From Ferruginibacter sp. (GTDB lineage: Bacteria > Bacteroidota > Bacteroidia > Chitinophagales > Chitinophagaceae), in contig JANNGD010000156.1 in assembly GCA_031380515.1 (NCBI GenBank), positions 24,677-48,676 of the forward strand: a DNA stretch of 24,000 bases, in the 5' to 3' direction. The notes beneath the pieces were generated by a model. The model saw nothing but the letters and a program-made list of their open reading frames with translations, made no database searches and was not told the origin of the DNA. Positions within the stretch are counted from its first letter, which is position 1; every line of letters begins with the position of its first letter. Of the stretch, positions 4,142 to 18,430 are shown piece by piece. Both the position numbers and the translations under genes were made by a program.

Positions 4142-4966
4142 TTAAATGATGGTTATTTTTTTAGCATTGGTTATTTCAAACGATTGGTTGTTTTGAACAA
4201 AAGCAACGACCAAATAATTTTCTTTTTCAAAATTTGCCGGCAGGTTAAAAGTAGCAGTGCCCTTACTTTCATTTTTCTGAACAATATCCTGAACGATATT
4301 GATATGGCTTAATGTAGCCCCGCCGTTTTCGCCACGCTTTACCTGTGTAGTGGCATTTTTCAATACCAATTCAAACAGCAGCGTTTCATTTGGCTCCAAA
4401 ACAGCGTAATTGTATTTCACAGACAACTGCTGATTTTTTATCATTGGCATTTCTGTTTCAATAAAAATATTGCTTGTACTTTTATAATTATTGAGTGCAT
4501 TCCACAGGGCTGATTTATTGGAGCCTACAAATTCTGTTTTGCCATTTACAATTGCCTGCGGTGTATATACTGATTCGAGGTTCAAATGTTGAGCATACTG
4601 CCTTTGTCTTTCCGAAAAAGCAGCTCTACTGAAAGGGTCTTTCCAACCTAACCTGTCCCAATAATCAACATGGTAACTCAGTATAATAGTTTTATCATTA
4701 AATTCATTTTGTGCCATTGCAACCAACTTATCTGCTGAAGGGCAGCTTGAACAACCTTCTGAAGTAAATAATTCAACAACAGATGGAGTGCTGTTTTTAG
4801 ACTGTTCAAAAGACGACATCGAAATTTGCAACGGTATTGTAAACTTATTTTTTGGCAACATATCTACAACCTTTACAGTTGAATATATAAGCAAAGCCCC
4901 AAAGAACAATATATAAATAGCGGAAGCAAAATGTACAGTAAATGTATTAGCTTTTGATAAATTCAT
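4142..4966 (-). CDS. DUF1223 family thioredoxin-fold protein with N-terminal membrane anchor or signal
   Basis: Hallmark blocks VELFTSEGCSSCPSADKL, SYHVDYWDRLGWKDPFS, RQRQYA and VYTPQAIVNG. ATG start, TAA stop. 28 nt downstream of the YHS gene. Confidence 0.88.
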   Translation of the reverse strand: MNLSKANTFTVHFASAIYILFFGALLIYSTVKVVDMLPKNKFTIPLQISMSSFEQSKNSTPSVVELFTSEGCSSCPSADKLVAMAQNEFNDKTIILSYHVDYWDRLGWKDPFSRAAFSERQRQYAQHLNLESVYTPQAIVNGKTEFVGSNKSALWNALNNYKSTSNIFIETEMPMIKNQQLSVKYNYAVLEPNETLLFELVLKNATTQVKRGENGGATLSHINIVQDIVQKNESKGTATFNLPANFEKENYLVVAFVQNNQSFEITNAKKITII

Positions 4967-4994
4967 GATGGTTAAATTTAAAGGTTAAAAAACA

Positions 4995-5465
4995 TTATTT
5001 AAAAAATTTAGTCCAGGAAACATCTGCCTTTGCTTTCAAATTGGCTTCATTTTTATTCCATTTGTTTAACGTATTGTTTGTCCATGAATGATAAAACAAG
5101 TATAGCTTACCAGCAACTATTTTAAAAGTTTCAGGGTCAATATCTACTTTTTCTTCTGTTGCTCCCATTGCATAAGCACACCAACCGCCGTATTGGGGCT
5201 CGTACTTTTTGAAATCTTTTTTAAACAGTTCTTTGTCTTCTGCTGTGGCAAAATAATAAGTAACACCTTCTGCAGCTACTGCCAATTCTTTCTTTCCTTT
5301 AATGGCTTTGTTTTGTGTAAAGTAAGCAACTGGGTCGTAGCCCTGCAATGCAACTCCTTTTTCAATATTAAACTGAGCGGTACGGGTGGCTTGTTGTGCA
5401 AATGCAGTGCTGTTTAATAAAAGGACTGCGAAAACTGTTGTTAAAATTGTTGCGAACTTTTTCAT
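4995..5465 (-). CDS. Secreted YHS-domain protein (paralog of 16014..16454)
   Basis: Signal peptide (..LLLNSTAFAQQ). Blocks GYDPVAYF, YYFATAEDKELF, PQYGGWCAYAMG and GKLYLFY are shared with the second copy. Confidence 0.85.
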   Translation of the reverse strand: MKKFATILTTVFAVLLLNSTAFAQQATRTAQFNIEKGVALQGYDPVAYFTQNKAIKGKKELAVAAEGVTYYFATAEDKELFKKDFKKYEPQYGGWCAYAMGATEEKVDIDPETFKIVAGKLYLFYHSWTNNTLNKWNKNEANLKAKADVSWTKFFK

Positions 5466-5595
5466 TTTTTTCTTTTGATTTTCTTTTGATTTTATAAATG
5501 TTATTGATTTTTTAAACGGTTATTAAAAACTATATATTGATAATAATCCAGCCGACTGATTTGCTTTTTTTGTGCTGCATCCTTCTCGCTTAAAT

Positions 5596-5622
5596 AGTCG
5601 GGACAACATGGTTATCCTTACA
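5596..5622 (-). promoter_or_regulatory. Candidate ECF-type promoter, TGTAAGG-N13-CCCGACT (read on minus strand)
   Basis: Minus-strand reading of 5622..5596 is TGTAAGG ataaccatgttgt CCCGACT. Both 7-mers and the spacing are identical to the site at 15961..15987. It lies 131 nt upstream of the YHS ATG in sense orientation. The AAG-16 nt-CGAC geometry resembles ECF -35/-10 promoters. Confidence 0.5.
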
Positions 5623-6104: not shown

Positions 6105-6365
6105 TTATTGGATCTGTTCTTTCATACGGGCTTTAAAATCATCTGATGCTTTTAAGGCTGGCTTATTATCAAAATCTTTAAAATAAGCTTTTAAAGATTC
6201 ATCAATCATGGGAGACTGCTTTGTAAAATTTTTGCAACACTTACAAAATAAGATATGAAACTTCATCTCAAATTTTTGCTTAAACGTAATTTTCTCTTCT
6301 TCATTTTTCAGAGAAAGCAGCGAAGCCTCCACGCAATTGTTTAATATCCTATTGAAATATCCCAT
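6105..6365 (-). CDS. Small soluble zinc-binding (ZAS-type) anti-sigma factor
   Basis: 86 aa with no TM segment; starts 2 nt after the ECF sigma stop. Full C-x25-H-x3-C-x2-C motif: C11 (NNCVEAS), H37, C41, C44 (FHILFCKCC). Confidence 0.7.
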   Translation of the reverse strand: MGYFNRILNNCVEASLLSLKNEEEKITFKQKFEMKFHILFCKCCKNFTKQSPMIDESLKAYFKDFDNKPALKASDDFKARMKEQIQ

Positions 6366-6367
6366 TT

Positions 6368-6949
6368 TTAATTCATTACACCTTTTTTTTCAAGGCAGGT
6401 ACGCAATATTGTTTTTGATCTGAAAATGATCACCCAATAGTTAGACGGGGTAATATCATGTTCCTTACAAATATTTTCAGTTTTTTCATCTTCAATGTAT
6501 TTTGACACAAAAACAGCTTTCAATTTGGCAGGCATTTTTTCTAGACAAATACCCAAAAACTTTTGAAATTCTTTACTAATAAGGTAACTATCAGCAGCCT
6601 TTGAAAAATAATTTTCTCCTATATCTTCTTTCCATCTGCCATAATTATCCTTGTCAAAAAAAGAATTTTCAAATGAATCTTCCGTTTGATCAAGGTAAGT
6701 TGAAAAACTATCTGTAATTTTTGGCTTACGGTAATAGTCTATAATTTTATTCTTCAAAATAGCCATTAGCCAGGTTTTTTCAGAAGCTGTGCCATTGTAA
6801 TTTTCCCGCCCTTTAAATGCAGATAAGAAAGTTTCCTGCACTACATCTTCAGCTTCCTCTCTTTTTCCTATTTTAAAATATGCAAAGTTGAAAAGATAAT
6901 CGGTATAATTATCAACCCAGCCATCAACATTTAAAGTATGTATTTGCAT
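6368..6949 (-). CDS. ECF-type RNA polymerase sigma-70 family factor
   Basis: Region 2 pattern (EDVVQETFLSAF .. TWLMAILKNKIIDYYRK) and a C-terminal region 4 HTH (ENICKEHDITPSNYWVIIFRSKTILR). 193 aa, typical ECF size. Confidence 0.88.
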   Translation of the reverse strand: MQIHTLNVDGWVDNYTDYLFNFAYFKIGKREEAEDVVQETFLSAFKGRENYNGTASEKTWLMAILKNKIIDYYRKPKITDSFSTYLDQTEDSFENSFFDKDNYGRWKEDIGENYFSKAADSYLISKEFQKFLGICLEKMPAKLKAVFVSKYIEDEKTENICKEHDITPSNYWVIIFRSKTILRTCLEKKGVMN

Positions 6950-8754: not shown

Positions 8755-9246
8755 CTATTGATTTTCCTTAATAATTTTATAGATTATATTCTCATCGCCT
8801 GCTACATACCCTTGATGCCGGTAGATTATTTCTCCATTTTTAATAATTATACTATAAGGTACATTGGCAATATTTAATTCTCTTTTAAGGTCTTGGTTTT
8901 TATCAAGCAATACATTGAATTCCCAACCTTTTCCTTTTACAAGTGGGTTTACTCTTCCAGCGGTTCTGCTGTCATCTTCTGATATGGCATACAAATCAAA
9001 TTTTGTGCTTTTATTCCAGTCTTCTAAATTGTCATCAGTTGCAGTTAATTCGTTTATGCAAGGAATGCACCAAGTAGCCCAAAATAATAAAACGATAAGC
9101 TTACCTCCTTTTTCATTAAATTTTTCTGTTTGAAAGTTTACCCCATCCAATGTTGCCAGTTTGACATTAGGTATTTTTTGTGCCATAACACCTGATTGAA
9201 AAGCACAGAACAATAAAAGGATACTAAACGATTTGTACATAGCCAT
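8755..9246 (-). CDS. TlpA/ResA-like periplasmic thiol:disulfide oxidoreductase (thioredoxin fold)
   Basis: Signal peptide and active-site block LLFWATWCIPCINEL (CxxC). 163 aa. TAG stop 3 nt before the next ATG. Confidence 0.88.
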   Translation of the reverse strand: MAMYKSFSILLLFCAFQSGVMAQKIPNVKLATLDGVNFQTEKFNEKGGKLIVLLFWATWCIPCINELTATDDNLEDWNKSTKFDLYAISEDDSRTAGRVNPLVKGKGWEFNVLLDKNQDLKRELNIANVPYSIIIKNGEIIYRHQGYVAGDENIIYKIIKENQ

Positions 9247-9263
9247 GACTTATTTTTAATAAT

Positions 9264-9290
9264 AGACTTTGTTTTTTTTCAATCCTTACA
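9264..9290 (-). promoter_or_regulatory. Candidate ECF-type promoter for the TlpA-like operon (TGTAAGG-N13-AAAGTCT, minus strand)
   Basis: Minus-strand reading is TGTAAGG attgaaaaaaaac AAAGTCT, ending 17 nt before the TlpA-like ATG (9246). The -35-like half is one arm of the 9280..9309 palindrome. The -10-like half matches the CCCGACT sites only at G, C and T. Confidence 0.35.
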
Positions 9291-9309
9291 AAAAAATTTG
9301 TAAGGATTG
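9280..9309. promoter_or_regulatory. Perfect 13-bp-arm palindrome in the divergent TlpA-like/Omp28-like promoter region
   Basis: caatccttacaaa-aaaa-tttgtaaggattg: 13/13 complementary arms with a 4-nt loop. It is centred between two diverging start codons (9246 and 9344), so it cannot be a terminator. It carries TGTAAGG on both strands. Confidence 0.8.
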
Positions 9310-9325
9310 AAAATTTGCACCGTCC
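9299..9325 (+). promoter_or_regulatory. Candidate ECF-type promoter for the Omp28-related gene (TGTAAGG-N13-ACCGTCC)
   Basis: Plus-strand TGTAAGG attgaaaatttgc ACCGTCC, ending 18 nt before the ATG at 9344. CGTC is the classical ECF -10 core. Spacing is the same as at the other three sites. Confidence 0.4.
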
Positions 9326-9343
9326 ATAAATAAAAACTCAATT

Positions 9344-10384
9344 ATGAAAAAATTTATGATCTTGGCCTTTCTTATTGGAAGTGCCATCCTTTTTAATTCC
9401 TGCACAAAGACAGAATCGGAGTTTACTGATACTCCACAAGAGGCTATTACTGTAAAAGCTAGTACCTTAAGTATCATTTCTGGTAATACAGTAACTTTTT
9501 TGGTACAGTCATCTGTAAACAACCACAATGTAACTGCTAGTAGTAAAATTTATGTAAATGGTTCTTTAATCACTGGCAATAGTTATACTTTTAGTGTGGA
9601 AGGTAATTTTGCTGTATATGCTACATATGGCCAATTAACATCTGCCGTAATTACTGTAAATGTTGCGCCATTACCTGCCACAACAATGTATAAACACAAT
9701 GTGTTGGTAGAAGAATATTCTGGCACATGGTGTGGAAACTGCCCAAGAATATTATATGGTGTAGATTTATTGGAACAACAAACAACAAAGGCAATAATAG
9801 TAAGTACACATTTATTTGGTAGTGACCCATTTATTTCAACAGATGGAAATAGTTTGGCTGCACAACAGGGAGTAGGAGGGGTACCAAATGGTTTTATAAA
9901 TAGAACCTTAAGTTGGATTGCGCCTCAGTATCAAAATGTAAACCAAGTAATCAATACAATCCAGGCTTCTGCTTCAGTTGGCTTGGCAATAAATTCAGCA
10001 GTAAGTGGCAACAACTTATCGGTAAATATAAAAGCTAATTATTCCCAACCTTTATCGGGTTCTGCAAAACTTACTGTGTATTTGGTAGAAGATAAATTGT
10101 ACCATACGCAAAGTAATTATTCATCTAATCTTTATGGAGGACTTTCCAGTATTCCAAACTTTGAATACAATGGCGTTCTTCGAAAAATAATTAGCCCAAT
10201 AAGTGGTGATAATATTTCAATATCAGGAAACAACAATAACAAAGATTATTCATTGGTATTGCCTAGTAATATATCTAATATTTCAAATGCAAGAATAGTT
10301 GCTTTTGTTACCAATGCTGCTGGAATGGTAGTGAATGCATTAGAAGCAAAAGTGGGAGTTGCAAAAACTTTCGAAACAATATAA
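9344..10384 (+). CDS. Omp28-related outer-membrane lipoprotein with thioredoxin-like CxxC motif
   Basis: Lipoprotein signal (..AILFNSC), an N-terminal Ig-like segment, then the family block VLVEEYSGTWCGNCPR. This is the only convincing plus-strand gene in the window. Confidence 0.8.
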   Translation: MKKFMILAFLIGSAILFNSCTKTESEFTDTPQEAITVKASTLSIISGNTVTFLVQSSVNNHNVTASSKIYVNGSLITGNSYTFSVEGNFAVYATYGQLTSAVITVNVAPLPATTMYKHNVLVEEYSGTWCGNCPRILYGVDLLEQQTTKAIIVSTHLFGSDPFISTDGNSLAAQQGVGGVPNGFINRTLSWIAPQYQNVNQVINTIQASASVGLAINSAVSGNNLSVNIKANYSQPLSGSAKLTVYLVEDKLYHTQSNYSSNLYGGLSSIPNFEYNGVLRKIISPISGDNISISGNNNNKDYSLVLPSNISNISNARIVAFVTNAAGMVVNALEAKVGVAKTFETI

Positions 10385-10668: not shown

Positions 10669-10799
10669 CCGAACAAAAAAAGGCAGCTTATGCAGTAGCT
10701 GGTAGATTTTTGCGAAGATTTTATCGAATAAAGTTTCTAATGATTAGTACCTAAATTCCAAATATTGTTGCTTAAGTTTTTAAGCAAGTCCTATTTAAA

Positions 10800-10901: not shown

Positions 10902-11963
10902 TTAATAAATATTTGTATTTTGTCTGTATTGCTTTCCTAATCTAATTGTAGACCAAAAAGTATGGAAAGATATATATAGAGAACCTCTTTTTTTATTTTC
11001 AATAGCGGCCTCATACATCATCTTAAAATGTTTAACAATTTGCATTTGCCCTTTAAAAAAAGAATACCCAGGCTCGTAAATATGAGCAGGTTCTGATGCA
11101 GCTCCGTTCAATTCAAGTATTACATAATCTTTACCTTTTTTTAAACCCTCTATACTCATACAACGCAAATCGTATCGTCCATAAAAAAAACCATTTATTC
11201 TTTTACTAATGTAATCTATTGTATCTGTCAATTGTTCATCAATAATATGATTGTAATTTATAAAGGTAGCGCCTAAAACATGGTTGCCGTAAGGAACCAA
11301 CACTTGCTGCTCTCCATTGGAAAGCACTTTTGTAAAATCAATTTTATTCTGCATTTTTAGTTTATCATATTGCAAGAAACACCTGTCATTGTCCAATATC
11401 AGTTTTTCAACAGTTGATGAGCCATCACCAGTAATGGTGAGTAATTTTTTAAGCGTTACAGAAGTCACCATACCTTTTGTTTGCAAAGGATGCCTGTAAT
11501 AAAAAATACTAATTTCTATTGGATAATCAATATAAGTCTGGATTAGAAAACTGATACGCATATCCTTTCTATAAAGCTCCAATTCTGCTATATCATTAAT
11601 TTTTTTTACTCCCCACCCTCTTTCGCCTCTATCGGGCTTAGCTATCACGGGAAACGAAATGCCGGCTTCTTGCATTCGATGATTTATAGAAGATCCTTCT
11701 TCATTGTAATCTACAATAATAGTTGTCGGGTAATACTCTTTTGGTATCAGTTGAAATATCTTCCATTTACTCGAAAAAAACATTCCGCCATTTTCTATTG
11801 TAGGATTGGTAACAGAAAAGAAAAAGAATGATCTGGCTTTTATTGAAAGGTATAGAAAATAAAAACCAGCTGGGAAATATATCAACCACACAGGCCAGTA
11901 CTCCCAACTAAATGTTTTTATATAAAGCCTTCTTATGTTAAAATATATTTTATTAATGTTCAT
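10902..11963 (-). CDS. Membrane-anchored ATP-grasp fold carboxylate-amine ligase, specificity unknown
   Basis: N-terminal hydrophobic helices (WPVWLIYFPAGFYFLYLSI). ATP-grasp blocks FPVIAKPDRGERGWGVKKI, FLIQTYIDYPIEISIFYY and YVILELNGAASEPAHIY. Starts 3 nt after the upstream membrane-protein stop. Confidence 0.7.
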   Translation of the reverse strand: MNINKIYFNIRRLYIKTFSWEYWPVWLIYFPAGFYFLYLSIKARSFFFFSVTNPTIENGGMFFSSKWKIFQLIPKEYYPTTIIVDYNEEGSSINHRMQEAGISFPVIAKPDRGERGWGVKKINDIAELELYRKDMRISFLIQTYIDYPIEISIFYYRHPLQTKGMVTSVTLKKLLTITGDGSSTVEKLILDNDRCFLQYDKLKMQNKIDFTKVLSNGEQQVLVPYGNHVLGATFINYNHIIDEQLTDTIDYISKRINGFFYGRYDLRCMSIEGLKKGKDYVILELNGAASEPAHIYEPGYSFFKGQMQIVKHFKMMYEAAIENKKRGSLYISFHTFWSTIRLGKQYRQNTNIY

Positions 11964-11966
11964 TAT

Positions 11967-12551
11967 TTATTTAATAACCCAAACACTTTTTTCTAGTATT
12001 ATAGATAACACAGATGCAATACCTATTAAAACAGCTATACATTTATGCAATAAAGTACTTCCAACTTTCTTTACAGATATGTATATTAATAAAGCACAAA
12101 ATACAAATAATAATATTTGCTGTAACCATGTTTTTTCTAGCAGATAAACATTGAATAGTATAGATATTAAAACGGCAATGCCTACAATAAGAAATATTAT
12201 TGGATAGTGGCTGTGGTAATATATTTTCATATCTGAGCCTTTATCGCTTTCATTTGTAGGCAACAGCATTTTTACTGCTATAAAAAGAGTAATAGGATAA
12301 AGCAATATAAACAATAGTGCTGGTAGTGTCCACACAGTTTTATCTTTTAACTGGTAGGTTATAAACCAATCCTGCACATGCAGAAAGAGTATAAACAGTA
12401 CCCATAAAGTATGTGGCCAGTAAAATTTTATTTCTTTATAATGGTATAGTAAATCAGAGAACGAAGAAAGTATTTGTGTAATACCCAATCCTAAAATAAT
12501 GGAAACTAATATGGACACATATTCGAAGGCGCTTATCTGGTTACTAAACAT
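11967..12551 (-). CDS. Polytopic membrane protein (about 5-6 TM), unknown function
   Basis: 194 aa, almost entirely hydrophobic helices. The ATG overlaps the CoaB stop by 8 nt (ATGTTTAG), so translational coupling is likely. Confidence 0.7.
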   Translation of the reverse strand: MFSNQISAFEYVSILVSIILGLGITQILSSFSDLLYHYKEIKFYWPHTLWVLFILFLHVQDWFITYQLKDKTVWTLPALLFILLYPITLFIAVKMLLPTNESDKGSDMKIYYHSHYPIIFLIVGIAVLISILFNVYLLEKTWLQQILLFVFCALLIYISVKKVGSTLLHKCIAVLIGIASVLSIILEKSVWVIK

Positions 12552-13260
12552 AATTCAAACGCTTTTTATTTGTTGCTATAGGCAAAGTAGGCTGCAACTT
12601 AGTTATGAGATGATGTACAATATCAACAGCTACCAGTGACTTTAATTTCAGTTCATAATCAGTAATACCAAGTTGGCTATCAATTAATTTTATCCTGTTC
12701 GTATCAAAGCCAAATCCACTTCCATTGCTGTCTTGTATATTTAATACTACAAAATCAAATTTTTTGCGTTGCATTTTACTAATAGCATTGGGCAACCCAT
12801 TTTCGGTTTCCAAAGCAAATCCTACAAATATTTGTCCCGATTTTTTTGTTTTAGACAATTCAAAAGCAATATCAGGATTGGGCACAAGGCTGATATGTAT
12901 TTCGCCTTCCTGTTTTTTTATTTTTTGATTGGCAACAACCGCACATTTATAATCGGCCACTGCTGCTGAAAAAATTATTACGTCAGCATCAGTTGCCATA
13001 TATTGGGCTACTTCCAGCATTTCATCTGCAGTAACCACATTGGTAATTTGCTCAGCAACCAGCGTTGTTTTAATGTTTACAGGGCCAGAAACAACATGCA
13101 CATCTGCACCAAGGCTATGCAAATATTCGGCAATGGCATAGCCCATTTTTCCGGTGGAATGATTGGAAATAAAACGCACAGGGTCTATTGCCTCACGGGT
13201 AGGTCCTGCAGTAATGATAACCCTTTTTGATTTTAACTCGGTGTTGGAAAATTGTTCCAT
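12544..13260 (-). CDS. coaB: Stand-alone phosphopantothenate-cysteine ligase domain protein (CoaB; no CoaC half)
   Basis: KRVIITAGPTREAIDPVRFISNHSTGKMGYAIAE, SAAVADYK, QKIKKQ and VGFALET are collinear with the C-terminal (CoaB) half of E. coli Dfp/CoaBC as I recall it. The ORF starts only ~12 aa before the ITAGPT block. Stop is TAG followed by TAA. Confidence 0.88.
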   Translation of the reverse strand: MEQFSNTELKSKRVIITAGPTREAIDPVRFISNHSTGKMGYAIAEYLHSLGADVHVVSGPVNIKTTLVAEQITNVVTADEMLEVAQYMATDADVIIFSAAVADYKCAVVANQKIKKQEGEIHISLVPNPDIAFELSKTKKSGQIFVGFALETENGLPNAISKMQRKKFDFVVLNIQDSNGSGFGFDTNRIKLIDSQLGITDYELKLKSLVAVDIVHHLITKLQPTLPIATNKKRLNYV

Positions 13261-13268
13261 TAATTTGC

Positions 13269-13508
13269 TTATTGATATTGATTGAATAATTTAATTTTAA
13301 ATTTCTCCTGTACTATATCAAAGTATTTAGCTTTGTTAGTTGTCTTCTCTTTTACAGACAGATACATTGATATAAAAAATGTTGCCAATAAAGTAGATAC
13401 AATCTTTATTAAAATTGAGGTAGTCAACCTTTTTTTCAAGAAAGCATTCCACTTGGCAAACACAGCAAAAAAGCTACTTTTCGCAATCGGTGCTACAAAT
13501 ACTTTCAC
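13269..13508 (-). CDS. Possible small single-TM protein (79 aa), hypothetical
   Basis: ATG-initiated ORF filling the NRDE-CoaB gap almost exactly (13 nt and 8 nt spacers). One hydrophobic helix (ILIKIVSTLLATFFISMYL). The sequence is AT-rich and a plus-strand ORF overlaps it, so coding status is uncertain. Confidence 0.35.
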   Translation of the reverse strand: MKVFVAPIAKSSFFAVFAKWNAFLKKRLTTSILIKIVSTLLATFFISMYLSVKEKTTNKAKYFDIVQEKFKIKLFNQYQ

Positions 13509-13521
13509 AACATTTTTTTGT

Positions 13522-14286
13522 TTAATTATTTTGCATCGGGTTTATTTTTAAATGACCAGGTATTAAACAATCATTCAATTTGCTTTGTAAATCAATTTTT
13601 GTACTGCTGTAGCTGTAATTTGAAAAATCATAATAGCTCATGGCTGCATTGTGATGGCTTATTTCAATGAATGAAAAACTGAGTGTCTTTGTTATTTCGT
13701 TTCTGTTTATCATAAATCCATTTTCATTATCAACATGTGATTTAAAAAAATTGAGTAATGATAGTTTTGAAACGGGAGGGTTCATTGCCATCCAATTTTG
13801 AAACAAATCTTCCCTTTTTGTCTTTGCATCAGCATCATATAAAGTAGATGATGACCATATATGTGGCAATGTTTCATCTAACCGTATTCTGTGTCGTTCC
13901 ATGCCATCCCACACCAGTTGAAACAAATTATTATCACTCCATACTATTAAGGTAAATGGTTCAATGTCTTCCAAATCAATCAAATTCCATTCTACCACCG
14001 GCATTTCCGAGACGAGCAATTCCGACACAATAATGCCCCTGCTTTTTCTGTAATAATTTTTACGCTGGTGATTTTCAAAACCACCGTTCAATAAAACGAT
14101 AACGTTGCCGGTATTGTTTACACCAACCCAAGTTCCACCCGCCATTGGGTCTTTGGGAGATAAATAGGATATTCCATTTAATTCACTTATTGCTGGCTTT
14201 ACAGCTCTTGGTCTTTTAGGACTTTCATCCCTCAATGAACTAATAAAAACGCCATCATTACTGGGTATAAAAATTACGGTACACAT
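13522..14286 (-). CDS. NRDE / TANGO2 family protein (N-terminal Cys, Ntn-hydrolase-like)
   Basis: Starts MCTVIFIP, followed by SSLRDESPKRP (NRDE-motif position) and GGTWVGV. These are collinear with human TANGO2 MCIIFFKF..AANRDEFYSRP..GGTWLGI as I recall it. Confidence 0.85.
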   Translation of the reverse strand: MCTVIFIPSNDGVFISSLRDESPKRPRAVKPAISELNGISYLSPKDPMAGGTWVGVNNTGNVIVLLNGGFENHQRKNYYRKSRGIIVSELLVSEMPVVEWNLIDLEDIEPFTLIVWSDNNLFQLVWDGMERHRIRLDETLPHIWSSSTLYDADAKTKREDLFQNWMAMNPPVSKLSLLNFFKSHVDNENGFMINRNEITKTLSFSFIEISHHNAAMSYYDFSNYSYSSTKIDLQSKLNDCLIPGHLKINPMQNN

Positions 14287-14306
14287 AATTTATTTTTTAA
14301 AAATCA

Positions 14307-14930
14307 TTAAAACCCAATCCTGGTTCCTATCAAAAAAGAAAATGCTTTTGGTCTGCTATCCTGCACCTTAATATTGGCAGACCAGTAAGATGCATCTACA
14401 TATATTGTTTGCAATATTTTTGATGTAGTACTATAGGCAAGTCTTGAACCTGCTCTTCCAAATATTCCCTGCATTCTGGTTACCTGCTGGTTAATGATAC
14501 CATTTACATTATCTACCATAAGCCGTGGCTCTCCAATATTTGCATAGCCTGCGCCAAAATATGGTGATACAAATAATCTTCTGGAGTTGCTTAAGGCGAT
14601 ATTTCTGCCAATATTTATGCCTGCTAAAAAAACAGAACTGCTGGTTCTTTGAAAAAGATAAGCAGAACTTGCATCTTTTACCTGCTGGCTGTACTTTACA
14701 GCATTAAAGTCCAAAACAAATTGTGCAAAATAATGCTTGCTGAACTTATATTCGATGCCTGAATTTAATGCCAGCGAATTTTTATAAGCATTTGCGAACG
14801 AAGACACCGGGTTGAGCAACCCCACCGCAGTAGTAAAAAATATTTTTGATGTATCCTGTGCTTTTACAGATGTACAAAAACAAATAAAGAGCAGTGGCAA
14901 TAATAACCTGTAATCGATTAATTTTTTCAT
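14307..14930 (-). CDS. Small outer-membrane beta-barrel (porin-family) protein
   Basis: Signal peptide (..FCTSVKAQD), alternating beta-strand pattern and a C-terminal ..IGTRIGF with terminal Phe. Confidence 0.75.
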   Translation of the reverse strand: MKKLIDYRLLLPLLFICFCTSVKAQDTSKIFFTTAVGLLNPVSSFANAYKNSLALNSGIEYKFSKHYFAQFVLDFNAVKYSQQVKDASSAYLFQRTSSSVFLAGINIGRNIALSNSRRLFVSPYFGAGYANIGEPRLMVDNVNGIINQQVTRMQGIFGRAGSRLAYSTTSKILQTIYVDASYWSANIKVQDSRPKAFSFLIGTRIGF

Positions 14931-14931
14931 T

Positions 14932-15432
14932 TTAAGATTTAGCTAATGAAGCCTGATATTTGATGGTGGAATAAGCCATGCCAAAATCGTTATCAACAAT
15001 ATCGAGTTTCATTTCAATAATGGCTACTTTTATTAAGGCAAGGTGATGTATCGTATGTTCGGTATTATAAACCATTTCCCTGTAATAGGTAGTAGTTACG
15101 TTTGTTAATTCAATGGAGCCTTCTATCTGCTCCACAGTAAGTTTTAATTGCCTATCGGGAACTATTATAAGCCCATCCATTTGCTGCAGTACAACCTCTG
15201 CAAACACACGGTCGGTTTCTAGCAGCAGGTTTCTTTTTCGATTTACATAATCTACCTCTCCGGTGCTATATCCATCAATGGCGCATTGCAACAGTTCAAT
15301 CACATGCCTTGTGTGCCCTCCAATGCTTGAATTGCCAAGGTGTGCTACTTTTTGATTGTATTGCTCATCGGTAAGGCGCTGTAAAAGTTTACTAAGTGAT
15401 TGTAATTGCTGAGATAATTGCAGAAATATCAT
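14932..15432 (-). CDS. DinB-fold (DinB_2-like) metal-binding protein
   Basis: 166 aa helical protein with a His-triad-type pattern (GGHTRHVIELL .. NTEHTIHHLALIK). Its stop lies 1 nt before the next start. Confidence 0.75.
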   Translation of the reverse strand: MIFLQLSQQLQSLSKLLQRLTDEQYNQKVAHLGNSSIGGHTRHVIELLQCAIDGYSTGEVDYVNRKRNLLLETDRVFAEVVLQQMDGLIIVPDRQLKLTVEQIEGSIELTNVTTTYYREMVYNTEHTIHHLALIKVAIIEMKLDIVDNDFGMAYSTIKYQASLAKS

Positions 15433-15453
15433 GTACTTTTTTTTACCTTTTGT

Positions 15454-15879
15454 TTAATTAAGTGAGTGCGTAATTTTGTTTTTTCTAACCCTGTTTAGAA
15501 ATAGAATTGCTTGATGCTTATACAGTAGCATTATTACTGCACAACAAATCCAAACAACAATTGCCAGCATAAATAATTGCCCACCATCGCCCTTAGATTC
15601 TATGCCAATAACGGTAAAATGGGAAAGTATAGCGCCAGACATTAGGCCAAACCCCAAAAAGGCACCAATAAATACGGTGGATGGAATGAGGAGTAGAACA
15701 CTGGCAATTAATTCTATAACCCCTGTTCCAATTCTACCCCAGGGTTCCACCCCCAATTTGGTGAATAGTTCTACGGATTCTGGATGGCCAGTAAATTTAA
15801 AATACAGTGTTTGTAGAAGAATGATGGCAGCTACTATTCTAAGTACCAAACCGACGATAGTTTTTAAGTTGAATGACAT
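15454..15879 (-). CDS. DoxX family membrane protein
   Basis: 141 aa, 4 TM. Typical LRIVAAIILLQTLYFKFTGHPESVELFTKLGVEPWGRIGTGVIELIASVLLLIP pattern. Confidence 0.85.
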   Translation of the reverse strand: MSFNLKTIVGLVLRIVAAIILLQTLYFKFTGHPESVELFTKLGVEPWGRIGTGVIELIASVLLLIPSTVFIGAFLGFGLMSGAILSHFTVIGIESKGDGGQLFMLAIVVWICCAVIMLLYKHQAILFLNRVRKNKITHSLN

Positions 15880-15960
15880 GATGTTTTAGTATTATTGATT
15901 TAATTAAAAAAAACTGTTTGCACCTGCTTAGTTTTTCTATTACTTAGCAGATGTAGTAAC

Positions 15961-15987
15961 AGTCGGGAAAAAAACAAAACCCTTACA
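15961..15987 (-). promoter_or_regulatory. Candidate ECF-type promoter, TGTAAGG-N13-CCCGACT (minus strand), heading the DoxX..ATP-grasp array
   Basis: Minus-strand reading of 15987..15961 is TGTAAGG gttttgttttttt CCCGACT. Both 7-mers and the spacing are identical to 5596..5622 while the spacer is unrelated. It lies 82 nt upstream of the DoxX ATG. Confidence 0.5.
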
Positions 15988-16013: not shown

Positions 16014-16454
16014 TCATTTATTAAGTTTCGGCCAGTAACCATCTGCTGCTTTAATACGGCTGACGGTATCTTTTATCCAAAGCTGTTTTACATCCAAGTT
16101 ATAATTCAAATAAAGTTTACCACCTGCAATTGTCCAGGCTTTTGGGTCGGTGGGAGACAAGTGGTTTTCGCTGGCGCCATAAGCACAAAAACCTCCATAC
16201 TGTGGTACATATTTTTCTGGGGCTGTTTTAAAGCTGTCTAAATTATTTTGACTTACAAATTTCCATTTGCTCCCACTCCACTCAGTAGTGTATTTGTCAG
16301 TTCCTTCTACAGCATTTTGCTGATTGAAATATGCTACCGGGTCGTAGCCTTTAATAGCCACTCCATTTTTACCGCTGTACTTTATTGACTGTGCAAACAA
16401 GCCTGCGGAAAGTAGTACTGCAAAGCATGTAATAACTGCTGTTTTCATCTTCAT
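16014..16454 (-). CDS. Secreted YHS-domain protein (paralog of 4995..5465)
   Basis: Signal peptide. Blocks GYDPVAYF, PQYGGFCAYGAS and GKLYLNY. TGA stop. Confidence 0.85.
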   Translation of the reverse strand: MKMKTAVITCFAVLLSAGLFAQSIKYSGKNGVAIKGYDPVAYFNQQNAVEGTDKYTTEWSGSKWKFVSQNNLDSFKTAPEKYVPQYGGFCAYGASENHLSPTDPKAWTIAGGKLYLNYNLDVKQLWIKDTVSRIKAADGYWPKLNK

Positions 16455-16553: not shown

Positions 16554-17408
16554 TTATTTATCGGGCCTCACTATTTTTTTAAGTTCAGAAGGATTTTGAG
16601 ATGTGCAGTTTTTGAAGAACTTACTGAAATGCGCCACTTCATCAAAGCCCAGTATATCTGCTATTTCTTTTACTGATTTATCGGTGTAATAGAATAGCCG
16701 TTTGGCTTCTGCAACAATTCTTTCCTGTATTACCAGTGTGGGCGTTTTTTTGCTGTATAAAGAAAATATATTGGAAATTGTTTTGGGGGATTTATTGAGC
16801 AGCCCTGCATAAAACTGAACCTGGTGCTCTTTTCTGTAATGGATTTCTACCAGTAAATTGAATTGCCTAATGAGATTGAATTTTTCGCTATAAGCAGCCT
16901 CAGTACCCAGGTATTGTTTTTTGGCAAGCCGGGTAATTTGTATAATGAGGCGTACCAATAACATGCGGAGCATTTCAGCTTTTATATCTTCATCAGACAA
17001 AAATTCTTCAACAAAAACATCCAGCAAACGGTTCATTACTTCAATATGTTCTTCTTGCAATTTTATAAACAAAGTGGGTGAAGGCCCATAAAATACAAAA
17101 CCTACACAGCCTACTTCTACATCATGATTAACAATGCAGTAAAACTCCCGGTTAAACTGCCACAAAACTATATCTGCAGGATTTTGAAACCTGAAAGACT
17201 GGCTCACCATAACAGGTAATACATGGTTTGCACCAAAAACATATTCCACTTCATCAATAGTTACCACTTGTTGAGCGCCCCTGTTCCATGCAATGGTATA
17301 CAGCTTGCTGTCAATATTTGGTTCACTAAAATATCGCTGAAGATTTTCTTCTTCCGTTTTTAAAATAAGTTGCCCAGCATCTTGTTTATTCTTAAATATG
17401 TATTCCAT
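16554..17408 (-). CDS. AraC family transcriptional regulator
   Basis: C-terminal double HTH (..YAGLLNKSPKTISNIFS .. VKEIADILGFDEVAHFSKFFKNCTSQNPSE). The N-terminal sensor domain has YTIAWNRG and a C-x9-C pair (CIVNHDVEVGC). Confidence 0.9.
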   Translation of the reverse strand: MEYIFKNKQDAGQLILKTEEENLQRYFSEPNIDSKLYTIAWNRGAQQVVTIDEVEYVFGANHVLPVMVSQSFRFQNPADIVLWQFNREFYCIVNHDVEVGCVGFVFYGPSPTLFIKLQEEHIEVMNRLLDVFVEEFLSDEDIKAEMLRMLLVRLIIQITRLAKKQYLGTEAAYSEKFNLIRQFNLLVEIHYRKEHQVQFYAGLLNKSPKTISNIFSLYSKKTPTLVIQERIVAEAKRLFYYTDKSVKEIADILGFDEVAHFSKFFKNCTSQNPSELKKIVRPDK

Positions 17409-17548: not shown

Positions 17549-18430
17549 TTAAGCCGATCCTCTACCAAAACCAACCGTTTCTCGGTACAACTGCGGCGAT
17601 ACATCTGAATTTACTTTAAAAAAACGGCTGAAATAATATTCATCTTCATAACCTAACTCATAAGCAATTTCTTTCACCGTTTTGTCTGTCAGATACAATT
17701 CTCTTTTTGCTTCAATGATGATGCGTTCGTTTATGAGACTACTAAGTGTTTTATTAAAATGTGTTTTTGTGATTTTTGCCAAAGCCTTTGTAGAAATATT
17801 TAATGTGCTGGCATAGTCACTTGCAGAATGTTTTGTTTTAAAATCTTTTTCAATAGCATCTTTAAGGTTTTGCAAAATGAAGGGCTGCTTTACGTTTTTT
17901 TGTGCCAATATTAATTCCGGCTGCTGTTCTGATTTTAACCTAGATGCGGATATTAAAAATATTTTGAGGTAAGATACCAGCAGCTCGTACTGTGCCAATG
18001 CTGGGTTTTGCATTTCAATTTTCATCTGCTCCAGCAGAATATTTAATGTGGCAGACGAAGCATCGTCAATGCTGATGAACGGTGGTTGATAAATATTATT
18101 AAACAATACGCCATTGCAAGCCACTTCTGCTTGGTGCTTGTGTATGCAAAAAAAATCGGGATGAAATTGCAATGCTAATCCTTCCATATTTTCATCGGGC
18201 AAAAACATAAAGGGCTGATAAGGCGAAAATGCAAACAACGTATTTTGTATAAAATCATATTCTAAAAAATCTGCTTTTACTTTTCCCTTTCCTTCTTTTA
18301 TCTAAATAAGAGAGTAATAATTGTTGCGTTGTAAATGGTCAAAATAAGCATTGTTATCAAATGAGAATAGTTTGAAAGCAAGGTTGCCATTTTGAGGATT
18401 GATGAGTGTGAAAGTATTTTGCTGCTTCAT
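17549..18430 (-). pseudogene. AraC family regulator interrupted by one in-frame TAG (codon 43) at a conserved Trp position
   Basis: The ATG at 18430 opens MKQQNTFTLINPQNGNLAFKLFSFDNNAYFDHLQRNNYYSLI-TAG-IKEGKGKVKADFLEYDFIQNTLFAFSPYQ.., in frame with ORF 17549..18238. TAG is at 18302..18304. The tandem paralog has YTIAWNRG where this gene has YSLI*IKEG, which points to TGG>TAG. The C-terminal AraC HTH is intact. Confidence 0.8.

What the first reader, a model, noticed from the sequence alone, without database searches (positions are those of the whole stretch)
10902..15879. Near-contiguous eight-gene array DoxX-DinB-OM barrel-NRDE/TANGO2-small TM-CoaB-membrane protein-ATP-grasp: candidate undescribed thiol or pantetheine-type pathway
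Minus-strand intergenic distances are 21, 1, 20, 13, 8, -8 (overlap ATGTTTAG) and 3 nt, so a single transcription unit is very likely. It is headed by the TGTAAGG-N13-CCCGACT element at 15961..15987. I do not recognise this combination as a described system. It has two carboxylate-amine ligases of different folds: a CoaB-type cysteine ligase and a membrane-anchored ATP-grasp. It has an N-terminal-Cys NRDE/TANGO2 protein. Its DinB-fold protein shares a fold with bacillithiol/mycothiol S-transferases and the EgtB N-domain. Its DoxX protein belongs to a family linked to thiol-oxidative stress handling in mycobacteria. Two uncharacterised membrane proteins and an OM barrel complete it. One speculation is synthesis or use of a cysteine-containing small molecule (a low-molecular-weight thiol or pantetheine-like compound) at the membrane under redox stress. 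This is inference only.
Basis: inference. Interest (0 to 1): 0.7.

Follow-up and report, generated by a model that had tools for sequence, protein, structure and literature searches.

The report
Undescribed stress operon: TANGO2-like amidase, ATP-grasp, CoaB
This is a real operon, the local version of a widespread but undescribed Bacteroidota gene cluster. It pairs a TANGO2-like cysteine hydrolase with a new membrane-bound ATP-grasp ligase and, in some genomes, an extra copy of the cysteine-adding enzyme of coenzyme A synthesis, so it probably makes and recycles an unknown cysteine-containing small molecule under redox stress.

Summary
The coordinates, spacing and family assignments hold, with three corrections.

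- **Gene count.** There are seven genes, not eight. The 79-codon "small TM" ORF is a fast-diverging 261-nt spacer.
- **Upstream boundary.** In relatives the conserved unit starts one gene earlier, at the periplasmic YHS protein.
- **Missing exporter.** The LysE exporter that usually ends the unit is absent from this window.

**Synteny.** Across 76 related genome loci (Chitinophagales, Cytophagales, Saprospiraceae, some Flavobacteriales) the recurrent core is YHS, DoxX, DinB, NRDE/TANGO2, ATP-grasp and LysE. CoaB, the 194-aa membrane protein and the barrel are accessory. The coupling is nevertheless real:
- Four separate protein clusters are NRDE–ATP-grasp fusions, and others are LysE–ATP-grasp fusions.
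- Six of seven sampled members of the stand-alone CoaB clade sit with DinB, NRDE, ATP-grasp or the membrane protein, in shuffled order. None of 80 ordinary CoaB(C) loci does.

**CoaB.** It keeps the catalytic motifs of phosphopantothenate–cysteine ligase, lacks CoaC, and belongs to its own clade.

**Regulation.** The TGTAAGG-N13-CCCGACT element is enriched in the window. It also precedes YHS2–DUF1223 and the anti-sigma gene of a neighbouring ECF sigma/RsrA-like pair.

**Best reading (inference).** A thiol-stress regulon built around a ligase/amidase couple acting on a cysteine-bearing amide fed from 4'-phosphopantothenoylcysteine. I found no published description. The chemistry is untested.

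The parts
16554..17408 (-). AraC-family regulator, conserved upstream of the cluster in 15 of 76 relatives
   Evidence: Pfam HTH_18 E 2.4e-16; synteny. A terminator-like hairpin at 16514-16495 separates it from YHS.
16014..16454 (-). Periplasmic YHS-domain (seleno)protein family member (Cys form); conserved first gene of the unit in relatives
   Evidence: NCBIfam NF041384 151 bits against cutoff 70. Present in 46 of 76 loci, and usually 3-70 nt upstream of DoxX.
15961..15987 (-). ECF-type bipartite promoter motif TGTAAGG-N13-CCCGACT, 81 nt upstream of the DoxX start
   Evidence: 4 matches in the window against 0.6 expected; 0 of 100 shuffles reach 4. The same motif lies upstream of DoxX, YHS and anti-sigma genes in L002, L003, L004, L006, L007, L008, L018, L023 and L039. 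Function as a promoter is inferred.
15454..15879 (-). DoxX-family integral membrane protein
   Evidence: Pfam DoxX_2 35.8 bits, DoxX 24.7 bits. In 38 of 76 loci; 42 positions at least 95% conserved.
14932..15432 (-). DinB_2-fold protein with conserved His cluster (H40, H43, H126, H129, H130)
   Evidence: Pfam DinB_2 25.1 bits against cutoff 24.8. In 57 of 76 loci. His residues at least 95% conserved in 68 sequences.
14307..14930 (-). Candidate small outer-membrane beta-barrel (accessory)
   Evidence: Signal peptide ...VKA|QD, C-terminal ...TRIGF, amphipathic segments. A homologue in L082 has a weak Autotransporter hit. No Pfam or PDB match. In 13 of 76 loci.
13522..14286 (-). NRDE/TANGO2-family protein, putative N-terminal-Cys (Ntn) amidohydrolase
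   Evidence: Pfam TANGO2 46 bits against cutoff 22.6. M1-C2-T3-V4 and R19-D20-E21 at least 95% conserved in 56 sequences. Immediately upstream of the ATP-grasp in 45 of 76 loci. Fused to it in P0368, P0370, P0373 and P0386.
13261..13521 (.). 261-nt spacer; the 79-codon ORF 13269-13508 is not a conserved gene
   Evidence: 84% nucleotide identity with 3 frame-breaking indels against L002, where flanking genes are 94-97% identical and ungapped. Absent from all other loci.
12544..13260 (-). Stand-alone CoaB (phosphopantothenate--cysteine ligase paralogue, no CoaC domain)
   Evidence: Pfam DFP E 3.6e-64. PDB 5int E 2.8e-40 and E. coli CoaB 1u7u E 4.8e-36, with the ...ISNHSTGKMG... and ...AAVADY...QKIKKQ motifs kept. 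Its own clade in an NJ tree. Clade-specific association with the module.
11967..12551 (-). 194-aa six-helix membrane protein of unknown family, start overlapping the CoaB stop
   Evidence: 367 homologues, nearly all 190-194 aa, no Pfam. AF2 pLDDT 80 with six long helices. Only a non-significant TMEM175-like match, E 0.4. The 8-nt overlap with CoaB also occurs in L082 and L084; it is 20 nt in L087.
10902..11963 (-). Membrane-anchored ATP-grasp ligase of a family without a Pfam model
   Evidence: No Pfam hit. Weak RimK/CPS-like NCBIfam hits. Foldseek: CphA2 7ta5 E 3e-10, CphA1, GshF 3ln6 E 1.4e-9, then Ddl. Invariant K109/R112/G113/G116, R263/D265, E284/N286. 3032 representatives at E<=1e-3. Conserved hydrophobic N-terminus WEYWPxW.
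10684..10701 (.). Terminator-like hairpin readable on both strands, about 200 nt after the ATP-grasp stop; likely 3' end of the unit
   Evidence: Terminator scan found it on both strands. The next gene, Omp28 at 9344-10384, is convergent.
6368..6949 (-). ECF sigma factor, candidate regulator of the motif-bearing promoters
   Evidence: Pfam Sigma70_r2 and r4_2. The sigma/anti-sigma pair lies directly beside the module in L012, L014, L018, L020, L084, L089 and L090.
6105..6365 (-). 86-aa soluble anti-sigma with a zinc-binding (ZAS) signature C11, H37, C41, C44
   Evidence: HxxxCxxC plus the upstream Cys present in all 11 homologues. A motif copy at 6443-6469 lies 77 nt upstream of it.
4142..5622 (-). 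Second motif-driven unit: perfect motif copy (5596-5622), YHS paralogue (4995-5465), DUF1223 (4142-4966)

Best explanation
Shown:
- The region is a seven-gene operon. It is one variant of a modular gene cluster widespread in Bacteroidota.
- The conserved core of that cluster is: periplasmic YHS protein(s), DoxX membrane protein, DinB-fold metalloenzyme, NRDE/TANGO2-type N-terminal-cysteine hydrolase, a membrane-anchored ATP-grasp carboxylate-amine ligase of the cyanophycin-synthetase/GshF structural type, and usually a LysE-type exporter.
- A stand-alone phosphopantothenate-cysteine ligase (CoaB) and an overlapping six-helix membrane protein form an accessory module found with this cluster.

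Inferred, regulation:
- The operon is transcribed from an ECF-type promoter. The same motif precedes the neighbouring YHS2-DUF1223 genes and the anti-sigma gene of an ECF sigma/RsrA-like zinc anti-sigma pair.
- It is therefore probably switched on by thiol-oxidative or electrophile stress, with an AraC regulator as a second input.

Inferred, mechanism:
- The ATP-grasp and the NRDE enzyme act as a ligase/amidase couple. They build and cleave one amide bond of a cysteine-bearing small molecule at the inner face of the membrane. This resembles glutathionylspermidine synthetase/amidase, or MshC/Mca in the mycothiol cycle.
- CoaB without CoaC supplies 4'-phosphopantothenoylcysteine. Its free cysteine carboxylate is the natural kind of substrate for an ATP-grasp ligase, just as gamma-Glu-Cys is for glutathione synthetase.
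- DinB uses the thiol as an S-transferase.
- Where present, LysE exports the product or its conjugates towards the periplasmic redox proteins (YHS, DM13, thioredoxin-like).

The confidence given is for the whole statement including the inferred mechanism. That this is a real, conserved, functionally coupled cluster I would put at about 0.85.
For: Operon: gaps of 21/1/20/-8/3 nt and a terminator-like hairpin after the last gene.

Conserved core in 76 loci from other species: DinB 57, NRDE 53, YHS 46, LysE 45, DoxX 38. NRDE is immediately upstream of the ligase in 45.

Fusions: NRDE-ligase in four clusters that are under 50% identical to one another, all starting MCTV...NRDE. LysE-ligase in three clusters. 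One fusion sits in the same DM13-YHS-YHS-DoxX-DinB context.

Ligase: ATP-grasp fold closest to CphA1/CphA2 and the GshF glutathione-synthetase domain. ATP and Mg motifs are invariant.

NRDE: Cys2 and RDE are invariant. Human TANGO2 has a Cys-Ntn hydrolase fold (PMC13044924).

CoaB:
- Catalytic Asn and Lys motifs are kept.
- It forms a separate stand-alone clade.
- Six of seven sampled clade members lie with DinB, NRDE, ligase or the membrane protein in five different orders, against 0 of 80 control CoaB(C) loci; Fisher p = 1.4e-8.
- A fused CoaBC sits directly after the ligase in four further loci, and an independently derived stand-alone CoaB follows LysE in Dyadobacter.

Regulation: motif enrichment, conservation upstream of DoxX, YHS and anti-sigma genes, and the ZAS signature C11/H37/C41/C44.
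Against: - No metabolite, activity or transcript has been observed. Every mechanistic step is inferred from families and context.
- Most ligase loci (about 89%) have no CoaB nearby, so the core function does not need a dedicated CoaB.
- Each of NRDE, CoaB, the membrane protein and even the ligase can be missing from an otherwise similar operon (L007, L082, L084). That is unusual for a strict linear pathway.
- DinB-fold proteins are not all thiol transferases, and the Pfam hit is at threshold.
- Many ZAS anti-sigmas are not redox sensors.
- Bacteroidota are already predicted to make bacillithiol or N-methyl-bacillithiol (PMC6282198), so a further thiol is not required to explain a DinB protein.
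- The ligase's strongly conserved hydrophobic N-terminus and its fusions to DedA/VTT proteins fit a lipid substrate as well.
- The relation of this NRDE subfamily to human TANGO2 is remote (phmmer E 0.5).
Confidence: 0.4

Rival explanations
1. Co-regulated but functionally independent stress genes. The operon is a convenient transcription unit for unrelated envelope and redox proteins. The extra CoaB simply raises flux into coenzyme A, itself a protective thiol, during stress. There is no shared novel metabolite.
For: Gene content is modular, and every accessory gene is dispensable in some relative. The window is a redox island: OYE, CMD, thioredoxin-like and DUF1223 genes. CoaB keeps canonical PPCS motifs. 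A fused housekeeping-type CoaBC lies next to the ligase in four loci.
Against: NRDE-ligase and LysE-ligase fusion proteins exist. Clustering persists with shuffled order at 33-40% identity. A stand-alone CoaB without CoaC does not on its own raise CoA output. Control CoaBC loci show 0 of 80 association.
Confidence: 0.25
2. Membrane-lipid head-group chemistry. The ligase adds an amino acid to the carboxylate of an amino-acid lipid or another membrane-bound acid. NRDE, like the fatty-amide Ntn hydrolases, removes it or deacylates it. LysE or DedA-type partners flip the product.
For: The hydrophobic N-terminus (WEYWPxW) is invariant across the family. The ligase is fused to LysE and to VTT/DedA membrane domains. 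Structural work proposes fatty-acid derivatives as TANGO2 substrates, and TANGO2 binds acyl-CoA (PMC13044924, PMC11867700). YceI lipid-binding genes sit beside the module in L087-L089. From general knowledge, Bacteroidota are rich in amino-acid lipids.
Against: No acyltransferase or lipid-synthesis gene is in the conserved core. This reading does not explain the specific CoaB association, DinB, or the thiol-type regulation.
Confidence: 0.15
3. Heme handling. The NRDE protein is a heme-trafficking factor like Shewanella HtpA, serving periplasmic electron-transfer proteins of the cluster.
For: A bacterial TANGO2 homologue was reported to aid cytochrome c maturation (PMC10470608). DM13 electron-transfer domains and a cytochrome P460-like gene occur in relatives. 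A chlorite-dismutase-like gene is in the window.
Against: Invariant Cys2/RDE catalytic-type residues and covalent fusion to an ATP-dependent ligase point to enzymology, not chaperoning. Heme binding by human TANGO2 was found to be nonspecific (PMC13044924), and the heme role is disputed (PMC12782551). No cytochrome maturation genes are nearby.
Confidence: 0.05
4. The CoaB is the organism's only housekeeping PPCS, and its position in the array is incidental.
For: I could not inspect the rest of this genome. Annotation pipelines name such proteins CoaBC.
Against: - It lacks CoaC.
- It is present or absent among close relatives carrying the same operon, which an essential single-copy gene could not be.
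- It belongs to a separate stand-alone clade.
- Chitinophagales relatives carry a fused CoaBC, and the usual housekeeping context is rpoZ-coaBC-DUF4835-recN.
- Its clade recurs with the module.
Confidence: 0.03

Closest known systems
Glutathionylspermidine synthetase/amidase (E. coli Gss)
   Same: An ATP-dependent carboxylate-amine ligase is paired with a cysteine-nucleophile amidase acting on the same amide. In some relatives both are on one polypeptide (NRDE-ATP-grasp fusions). From general knowledge, the Gss couple is redox-switched through the amidase cysteine.
   Different: The amidase here is an Ntn-type NRDE/TANGO2 domain, not a CHAP domain. The ligase is membrane-anchored and structurally nearest to CphA and GshF. 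The substrate is unknown. It may work like Gss but is not a member.
Mycothiol/bacillithiol detoxification cycle (DinB-type S-transferase, conjugate amidase Mca/Bca, cysteine ligase MshC/BshC, mercapturate export)
   Same: It has the same cast of roles: a DinB-fold protein, an amidase, one or two ATP/CTP-dependent ligases including a cysteine ligase, and an amino-acid-type exporter. Regulation is by an ECF sigma with an RsrA-like anti-sigma, as for SigR in actinomycetes.
   Different: None of the enzymes is homologous to Mca, MshC or BshC. No glycosyltransferase or sugar moiety is implied. The cysteine ligase is a CoaB paralogue.
Bifunctional CoaBC (Dfp) of coenzyme A biosynthesis
   Same: The DFP/CoaB domain keeps the conserved Asn and Lys catalytic motifs and is 42-55% identical to CoaB domains of fused proteins.
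   Different: There is no CoaC decarboxylase domain. It forms its own clade of 219-243-aa proteins. It is located in a stress operon and translationally coupled to a six-helix membrane protein, rather than in the rpoZ-coaBC-recN context.
Cyanophycin synthetase G domain / GshF C-terminal ATP-grasp domain
   Same: These are the best structural and profile matches. Both add an amino acid to a peptide-like carboxylate via an acyl phosphate.
   Different: Sequence identity is only 15-18%. The M and N domains of CphA and the GshA domain of GshF are absent. A conserved membrane-embedded N-terminus is unique to this family.
Eukaryotic TANGO2 and Shewanella HtpA (PF05742)
   Same: Same Pfam family, with N-terminal Cys2 and the (N)RDE motif.
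   Different: The sequence relation is remote (E 0.5 to human TANGO2). Here the protein sits next to, or is fused with, an ATP-grasp ligase, a context I did not find in the papers read.

Membership tests
ATP-grasp superfamily | ATP-grasp fold | tested here: met
   AF2 model pLDDT 80, pTM 0.80. Foldseek probability 1.00 to CphA1/CphA2, GshF, Ddl and LysX.
ATP-grasp superfamily | Conserved ATP-binding Lys/Gly-rich loop and Mg-binding E-x-N | tested here: met
   AKPDRGERGWG (K109, R112, G113, G116), GRYDLR (R263, D265) and ELNG (E284, N286) are invariant in 20 sequences.
Cyanophycin synthetase | Mur-ligase-like M domain and N domain in addition to the G domain | tested here: not met
   The protein is 353 aa. 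Only the ATP-grasp part aligns. NCBIfam cya_phycin_syn scores 17 bits against a cutoff of 850.
Phosphopantothenate--cysteine ligase (CoaB, PF04127) | Full-length DFP domain above the Pfam threshold | tested here: met
   216.4 bits against cutoff 22, profile positions 1-186 of 186.
Phosphopantothenate--cysteine ligase (CoaB, PF04127) | Catalytic Asn (E. coli N210) and Lys (K289) motifs | tested here: met
   ISNHSTGKMG and QKIKKQ align with the E. coli CoaB structure 1u7u. Assignment of these residues as catalytic rests on general knowledge of E. coli Dfp.
Phosphopantothenate--cysteine ligase (CoaB, PF04127) | Uses 4'-phosphopantothenate, CTP and L-cysteine | not testable with these tools
   Needs an enzyme assay.
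Bifunctional CoaBC (TIGR00521 equivalog) | CoaC flavoprotein domain and score above the curated cutoff | tested here: not met
   197.3 bits against cutoff 219.7, matching only profile positions 177-391. No PF02441 hit.
NRDE/TANGO2 (PF05742) | Pfam match above the gathering score | tested here: met
   46 bits against cutoff 22.6, though only profile positions 17-158 of 257.
NRDE/TANGO2 (PF05742) | N-terminal Cys2 and NRDE motif | tested here: met
   MCTV and R19-D20-E21 are at least 95% conserved in 56 homologues. The window has LRDE; the fusion proteins have NRDE.
Cys-Ntn amidohydrolases | Amide hydrolysis by the N-terminal cysteine | not testable with these tools
   Proposed for human TANGO2 from its structure only (PMC13044924).
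DinB/DinB_2 thiol S-transferases | DinB_2 domain with a metal-binding His set | tested here: inconclusive
   25.1 bits against cutoff 24.8. H40, H43, H126, H129 and H130 are conserved. No PDB relative by sequence. Transferase activity not testable.
DoxX family | DoxX/DoxX_2 domain | tested here: met
   35.8 bits against cutoff 26.3.
Outer-membrane beta-barrel | Signal peptide, amphipathic strands, C-terminal aromatic residue, recognised barrel family | tested here: inconclusive
   The sequence features are present, but there are no Pfam, PHROG or PDB matches. I did not predict its structure.
ZAS anti-sigma factors (RsrA type) | HxxxCxxC plus an upstream Cys, adjacent to an ECF sigma gene | tested here: met
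   C11, H37, C41 and C44 are present in all 11 homologues. The sigma gene is directly upstream. Redox sensing not testable.
ECF-sigma-dependent promoter | Conserved bipartite motif upstream of regulon genes, including the sigma/anti-sigma locus | tested here: inconclusive
   The motif is enriched and conserved. However, the copy at the regulator locus lies inside the sigma gene, upstream of the anti-sigma gene. No transcript data.
Low-molecular-weight thiol biosynthesis/detoxification systems | A demonstrated thiol product | not testable with these tools
   Needs monobromobimane HPLC-MS of wild type against mutants.

The most novel reading that the evidence does not exclude
Bacterial TANGO2-family proteins are amidases of a pantothenoyl-cysteine-type (CoA-branch) thiol or of its conjugates. 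They work in a cycle with a dedicated ATP-grasp ligase and a dedicated phosphopantothenate-cysteine ligase. This would be the first enzymatic context for the TANGO2 family, and a mechanistic lead for why pantothenate (vitamin B5) and acyl-CoA are tied to human TANGO2 deficiency. It would also define a previously unknown glutathione-like thiol in Bacteroidota, in which 4'-phosphopantothenoyl replaces gamma-glutamyl.
Probability: 0.12. Interest if true: 0.92.

Novelty: new variant of a known kind. Interest (0 to 1): 0.7.

Why it matters
**TANGO2.** The molecular function of the TANGO2 family is unresolved. Heme trafficking, acyl-CoA binding and Ntn-hydrolase activity are all currently argued, and its loss causes a severe human disease that responds to vitamin B5. 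This work gives bacterial TANGO2 homologues a firm genomic partnership:
- adjacency or fusion with a new ATP-grasp ligase;
- recurrent linkage to the cysteine-adding step of the CoA pathway;
- a redox-stress regulatory setting.

That turns a vague question into concrete assays on small bacterial proteins.

**Bacteroidota biology.** It also defines three things:
- a large ATP-grasp family with no Pfam model (about 3,000 representative clusters);
- a distinct clade of stand-alone CoaB paralogues;
- a candidate ECF sigma/zinc anti-sigma regulon, in soil and freshwater Bacteroidota whose thiol biochemistry is barely explored.

Tried and rejected
**Rejected**
- The 79-aa ORF as a gene.
- The 194-aa membrane protein as a LysE or DoxX relative: hhalign probability 0.4-1.4%.
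- The same protein as a confident TMEM175 homologue: Foldseek E 0.4.
- The ATP-grasp as a cyanophycin synthetase or GshF member, because the extra domains are missing.
- A riboswitch or known RNA in the leader or spacer. The only Rfam hit is a chance-level rli40 match.
- Phage-family relations for the unknown proteins.

**Led nowhere**
- The exact-sequence look-up of the window's proteins gave only a 4.7-kb contig, so I could not inspect the rest of the genome.
- PDB sequence searches for DinB and the barrel returned nothing, and the YHS search nothing informative.
- The contexts of a VTT-ligase and a LysE-ligase fusion were short or uninformative.
It did not enlarge the stand-alone sample, so I used it as a negative control instead.
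- Literature searches for this gene combination found no description.

Full report
**1. Observation**

The window (GC about 33%) carries eight co-oriented minus-strand ORFs at 15879-10902. Their gaps are 21, 1, 20, 13, 8, -8 and 3 nt, and the overlap reads ATGTTTAG.

Pfam supports four of the family calls:
- DoxX_2, E 9e-9.
- DinB_2, E 2.5e-5, just above threshold.
- TANGO2, E 1e-11.
- DFP/CoaB, E 3.6e-64.

The barrel candidate, the 79-aa ORF, the 194-aa membrane protein and the last gene have no Pfam family.

The last gene gives weak RimK/CPS-like NCBIfam hits. A profile of 20 homologues weakly matches cyanophycin synthetase 2 and GshAB in the PDB. An AlphaFold model (pLDDT 80) matches cyanophycin synthetases 1 and 2, the GshF ATP-grasp domain, and then D-Ala-D-Ala ligases (E 3e-10 and weaker, probability 1.0). 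The Lys/Gly-rich loop, GRYDLR and ELNG motifs are invariant. It is a genuine ATP-grasp ligase with a conserved hydrophobic N-terminus.

The 79-aa "small TM" ORF is not a gene. Against the 95%-identical relative L002, its stretch is 84% identical with three frame-breaking indels. All seven flanking genes are 94-97% identical without gaps. No other relative has this ORF.

**2. Source and relatives**

The closest genome locus is a Ferruginibacter MAG (L002, 96% protein identity). The ligase has 837 homologues in the word-indexed protein search. It has 3032 representative clusters at E<=1e-3 among 1.84 billion proteins. None carried a functional name.

**3. Synteny from the ligase side**

I called and clustered ORFs in 80 genome loci and annotated cluster representatives. 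Excluding the window's own species leaves 76 loci. The number carrying each family on the same strand near the ligase is:

| Family | Loci (of 76) |
|---|---|
| DinB | 57 |
| NRDE | 53 |
| YHS | 46 |
| LysE-type exporter | 45 |
| DoxX | 38 |
| 308-aa OM-barrel-like protein | 19 |
| AraC | 15 |
| DM13 lipoprotein | 15 |
| Small barrel | 13 |
| 194-aa membrane protein | 7 |
| Stand-alone CoaB | 4 |
| Fused CoaBC | 4 |

- NRDE is the gene immediately upstream of the ligase in 45 loci, and DinB in 15.
- The taxa span Chitinophagales, Saprospiraceae, many Cytophagales (Dyadobacter, Spirosoma, Larkinella, Reichenbachiella, Chryseotalea) and a few Flavobacteriales.
- In most loci YHS ends 3-70 nt before DoxX.

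It lacks LysE, has the optional barrel and CoaB-membrane pair, and its conserved upstream member, YHS, lies just outside the stated range.

**4. Fusions**

Thirteen of the best 150 representatives are 520-600 aa.
- Four mutually distant clusters are NRDE-ligase fusions, each starting MCTV...SNRDE (P0368, P0370, P0373, P0386).
- Three are LysE-ligase fusions (P0372, P0415, P0483).
- At least two are VTT/DedA-ligase fusions (P0490, P0496).
- One is ligase-YqcI/YcgG (P0459).
- One is ligase-MORN (P0393).

The P0370 fusion sits in a locus with a divergent ECF sigma/anti-sigma pair followed by DM13-YHS-YHS-DoxX-DinB-fusion. This is the strongest evidence that NRDE, the ligase and an exporter act on one substrate stream.

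**5. CoaB**

The window protein aligns end to end with solved PPCS structures (5int E 2.8e-40; E. coli CoaB 1u7u E 4.8e-36). It keeps the ISNHSxGKMG Asn and the KIKK Lys. It has no CoaC domain, so it falls below the CoaBC equivalog cutoff.

Its roughly 70 nearest database relatives are all 219-243 aa. Fused 400-aa CoaBC proteins appear only at 55% identity or less. In an NJ tree most stand-alone proteins form one clade apart from the fused ones. The Dyadobacter stand-alone copies and two split genes group with the fused proteins.

| Locus | Gene order |
|---|---|
| L082 | YHS-YHS-DinB-barrel-CoaB-membrane |
| L084 | AraC-YHS-DoxX-DinB-NRDE-CoaB-membrane-ECF sigma-anti-sigma-YHS |
| L087 | AraC-YHS-DoxX/DM13-DinB-NRDE-CoaB-membrane-ligase-LysE |
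| L088 | YceI-DinB-NRDE-ligase-CoaB, with the ligase only 39% identical |
| L089 | ECF sigma-anti-sigma-LysE-ligase ... YceI-CoaB-x-DinB-NRDE-thioredoxins-CMD |
| L085 | Unrelated context |
| L086 | A split housekeeping gene in rpoZ-coaC/coaB-DUF4835-recN, so not a clade member |

A metagenome scan with a CoaB alignment returned 80 loci, 76 of them fused CoaBC. None has any module gene nearby. Six of seven against 0 of 80 gives Fisher p = 1.4e-8. The sampled loci are not phylogenetically independent, but they show five different gene orders.

The CoaB-membrane start/stop overlap is conserved: 8 nt in the window, L082 and L084, and 20 nt in L087. The stand-alone CoaB is therefore an accessory paralogue dedicated to this cluster.

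That the window's genome also holds a normal CoaBC is inferred, not shown. The grounds are:
- the missing CoaC domain;
- presence or absence of the gene among close relatives;
- the separate clade;
- fused CoaBC in related Chitinophagales.

**6. The 194-aa protein**

It has 367 homologues, nearly all 190-194 aa and unnamed. Polar residues are conserved: E10, D33, H47, H58, Q60, D61, K71, K94, H169. The model has six long helices (pLDDT 80). The only fold match is a non-significant resemblance to bacterial TMEM175 channels (E 0.4). It is unrelated to LysE or DoxX. Its role is unknown.

**7. Regulation**

TGTAAGG-N13-CCCGACT occurs four times in the window against 0.6 expected:
- 81 nt before DoxX.
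- 130 nt before a second YHS gene, which is followed by DUF1223.
- Inside the 3' end of an ECF sigma gene, 77 nt before its anti-sigma gene.
- More weakly, before the Omp28 gene.

The same motif, with variable spacer sequence, precedes DoxX, YHS and anti-sigma genes in nine other loci. At the anti-sigma copy, the outer blocks TGTAAGG and CGTCT are unchanged in all five loci, while bases between them vary and one substitution (CCG to TCG) changes the encoded residue. That argues for selection on the DNA as well as on the protein.

The anti-sigma is small and soluble. It has Cys11, His37, Cys41 and Cys44 in all 11 homologues. From general knowledge, these are the positions of the zinc ligands of Streptomyces RsrA, the thiol-oxidation sensor of SigR. 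The sigma/anti-sigma pair lies directly beside the module in several relatives. An AraC regulator is the other recurrent neighbour.

The window around the operon is a redox island: OYE, nitrilase-like, chlorite-dismutase-like, CMD, DUF1348, thioredoxin-like and DUF1223 genes. Promoter activity and the inducing signal are inferred.

**8. Mechanism**

Shown: membership of the enzyme superfamilies, invariant catalytic-type residues, adjacency, fusions and a shared motif.

Inferred: a ligase/amidase couple acting on one amide of a cysteine-bearing small molecule.
- CoaB provides 4'-phosphopantothenoylcysteine. Its free carboxylate is the type of substrate that the nearest structural relatives of the ligase (GshF, CphA) extend.
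- DinB acts as a thiol transferase.
- LysE acts as exporter towards periplasmic redox proteins.

The closest working analogues are glutathionylspermidine synthetase/amidase and the mycothiol MST-Mca-MshC cycle (general knowledge; PMC6336425 for conjugate amidases). None of the proteins is homologous to those enzymes.

Points against:
- The accessory status of CoaB in about 89% of ligase loci.
- The dispensability of each component in some relative.
- The predicted presence of bacillithiol-type thiols in Bacteroidota (PMC6282198).
- The ligase's conserved membrane segment and DedA fusions, which fit a lipid substrate.

One topological puzzle remains. In NRDE-ligase fusions the hydrophobic segment lies between two domains that should both be cytoplasmic. 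It is therefore probably a re-entrant or hairpin anchor, not a single-pass helix.

**9. Comparison with the literature**

Papers on TANGO2 describe heme trafficking in Shewanella (PMC10470608). They also describe acyl-CoA binding dependent on the NRDE motif (PMC11867700), a Cys-Ntn hydrolase fold with unknown substrate and nonspecific heme binding (PMC13044924), and doubts about the heme role (PMC12782551). In the passages I searched, none mentions an ATP-grasp or CoaB neighbourhood. Searches for the gene combination found no description.

**10. Verdict**

But the system is modular rather than a fixed eight-step pathway, and its chemistry is unknown.

I rate it a new variant of a known kind: a stress-induced ligase/amidase thiol-type system built from different families. 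Interest is 0.7, mainly because it gives the TANGO2 family a testable enzymatic context connected to the CoA pathway.

Noticed in passing
window 6105-6949 (-): An ECF sigma gene is followed by an 86-aa soluble anti-sigma with the RsrA-like zinc signature C11/H37/C41/C44. A copy of the promoter motif lies inside the 3' end of the sigma coding sequence (6443-6469), 77 nt before the anti-sigma start. It is conserved in five loci with a variable spacer.
   Followed up: partly
window 4142-5622 (-): A perfect second copy of TGTAAGG-N13-CCCGACT (5596-5622) precedes a YHS paralogue (4995-5465, 37% identical to the first) and a DUF1223 protein (4142-4966). This is probably a second operon of the same regulon.
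   Followed up: partly
window 5466-6104: About 640 nt without an ORF of 100 aa or more lie between the anti-sigma gene and the YHS2 gene. I did not examine the stretch for small genes or RNAs.
   Followed up: no
window 17549-22823 (-): A run of redox and electrophile-type genes lies upstream: Old Yellow Enzyme-type flavin oxidoreductase, CN-hydrolase, a chlorite-dismutase-like protein, a CMD/AhpD-like protein, DUF1348 (SnoaL-like) and a second AraC regulator.
   Followed up: partly
window 7096-10384: Omp28 (+ strand, weak motif copy at 9299-9325), a thioredoxin/AhpC-like lipoprotein and a DUF6029 outer-membrane protein form a trio. It recurs downstream of the ligase in L002 and L006.
   Followed up: partly
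window 857-3355 (-): An 832-aa ORF with a TTG start and the 172-aa ORF after it (335-853) have no Pfam family.
   Followed up: no
P0490, P0496, P0459, P0393 (relatives of the ligase): The ATP-grasp family also occurs fused to VTT/DedA membrane domains, to a YqcI/YcgG domain and to MORN repeats. This hints at substrates or partners beyond the Bacteroidota cluster.
   Followed up: partly
L090 192-1252; L087 2829-3368; L088 4195-4746; L089 6442-6996: YeeE/YedE-type sulfur-transporter genes (L090) and YceI lipid-binding genes (L087-L089) sit next to distant versions of the module.
   Followed up: no
L010, L014, L018-L022, L025, L032, L036, L043-L045 (between DoxX and DinB): Many relatives insert a 308-aa outer-membrane-barrel-like protein plus a DM13 electron-transfer lipoprotein between DoxX and DinB. 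In L087, DoxX and DM13 are fused into one 275-aa protein.
   Followed up: partly
window 15880-15960 (-): The DoxX leader, downstream of the motif, contains an imperfect hairpin (CTGCTAAG...CTAAGCAG) followed by a T-run. It is not conserved in L007, so I did not pursue it.
   Followed up: partly
L057 and L073 (Dyadobacter arcticus DSM 102865): One isolate genome carries two copies of the NRDE-ligase pair on different contigs, each preceded by a sigma-54-type response regulator. Only one copy has a CoaB nearby.
   Followed up: no
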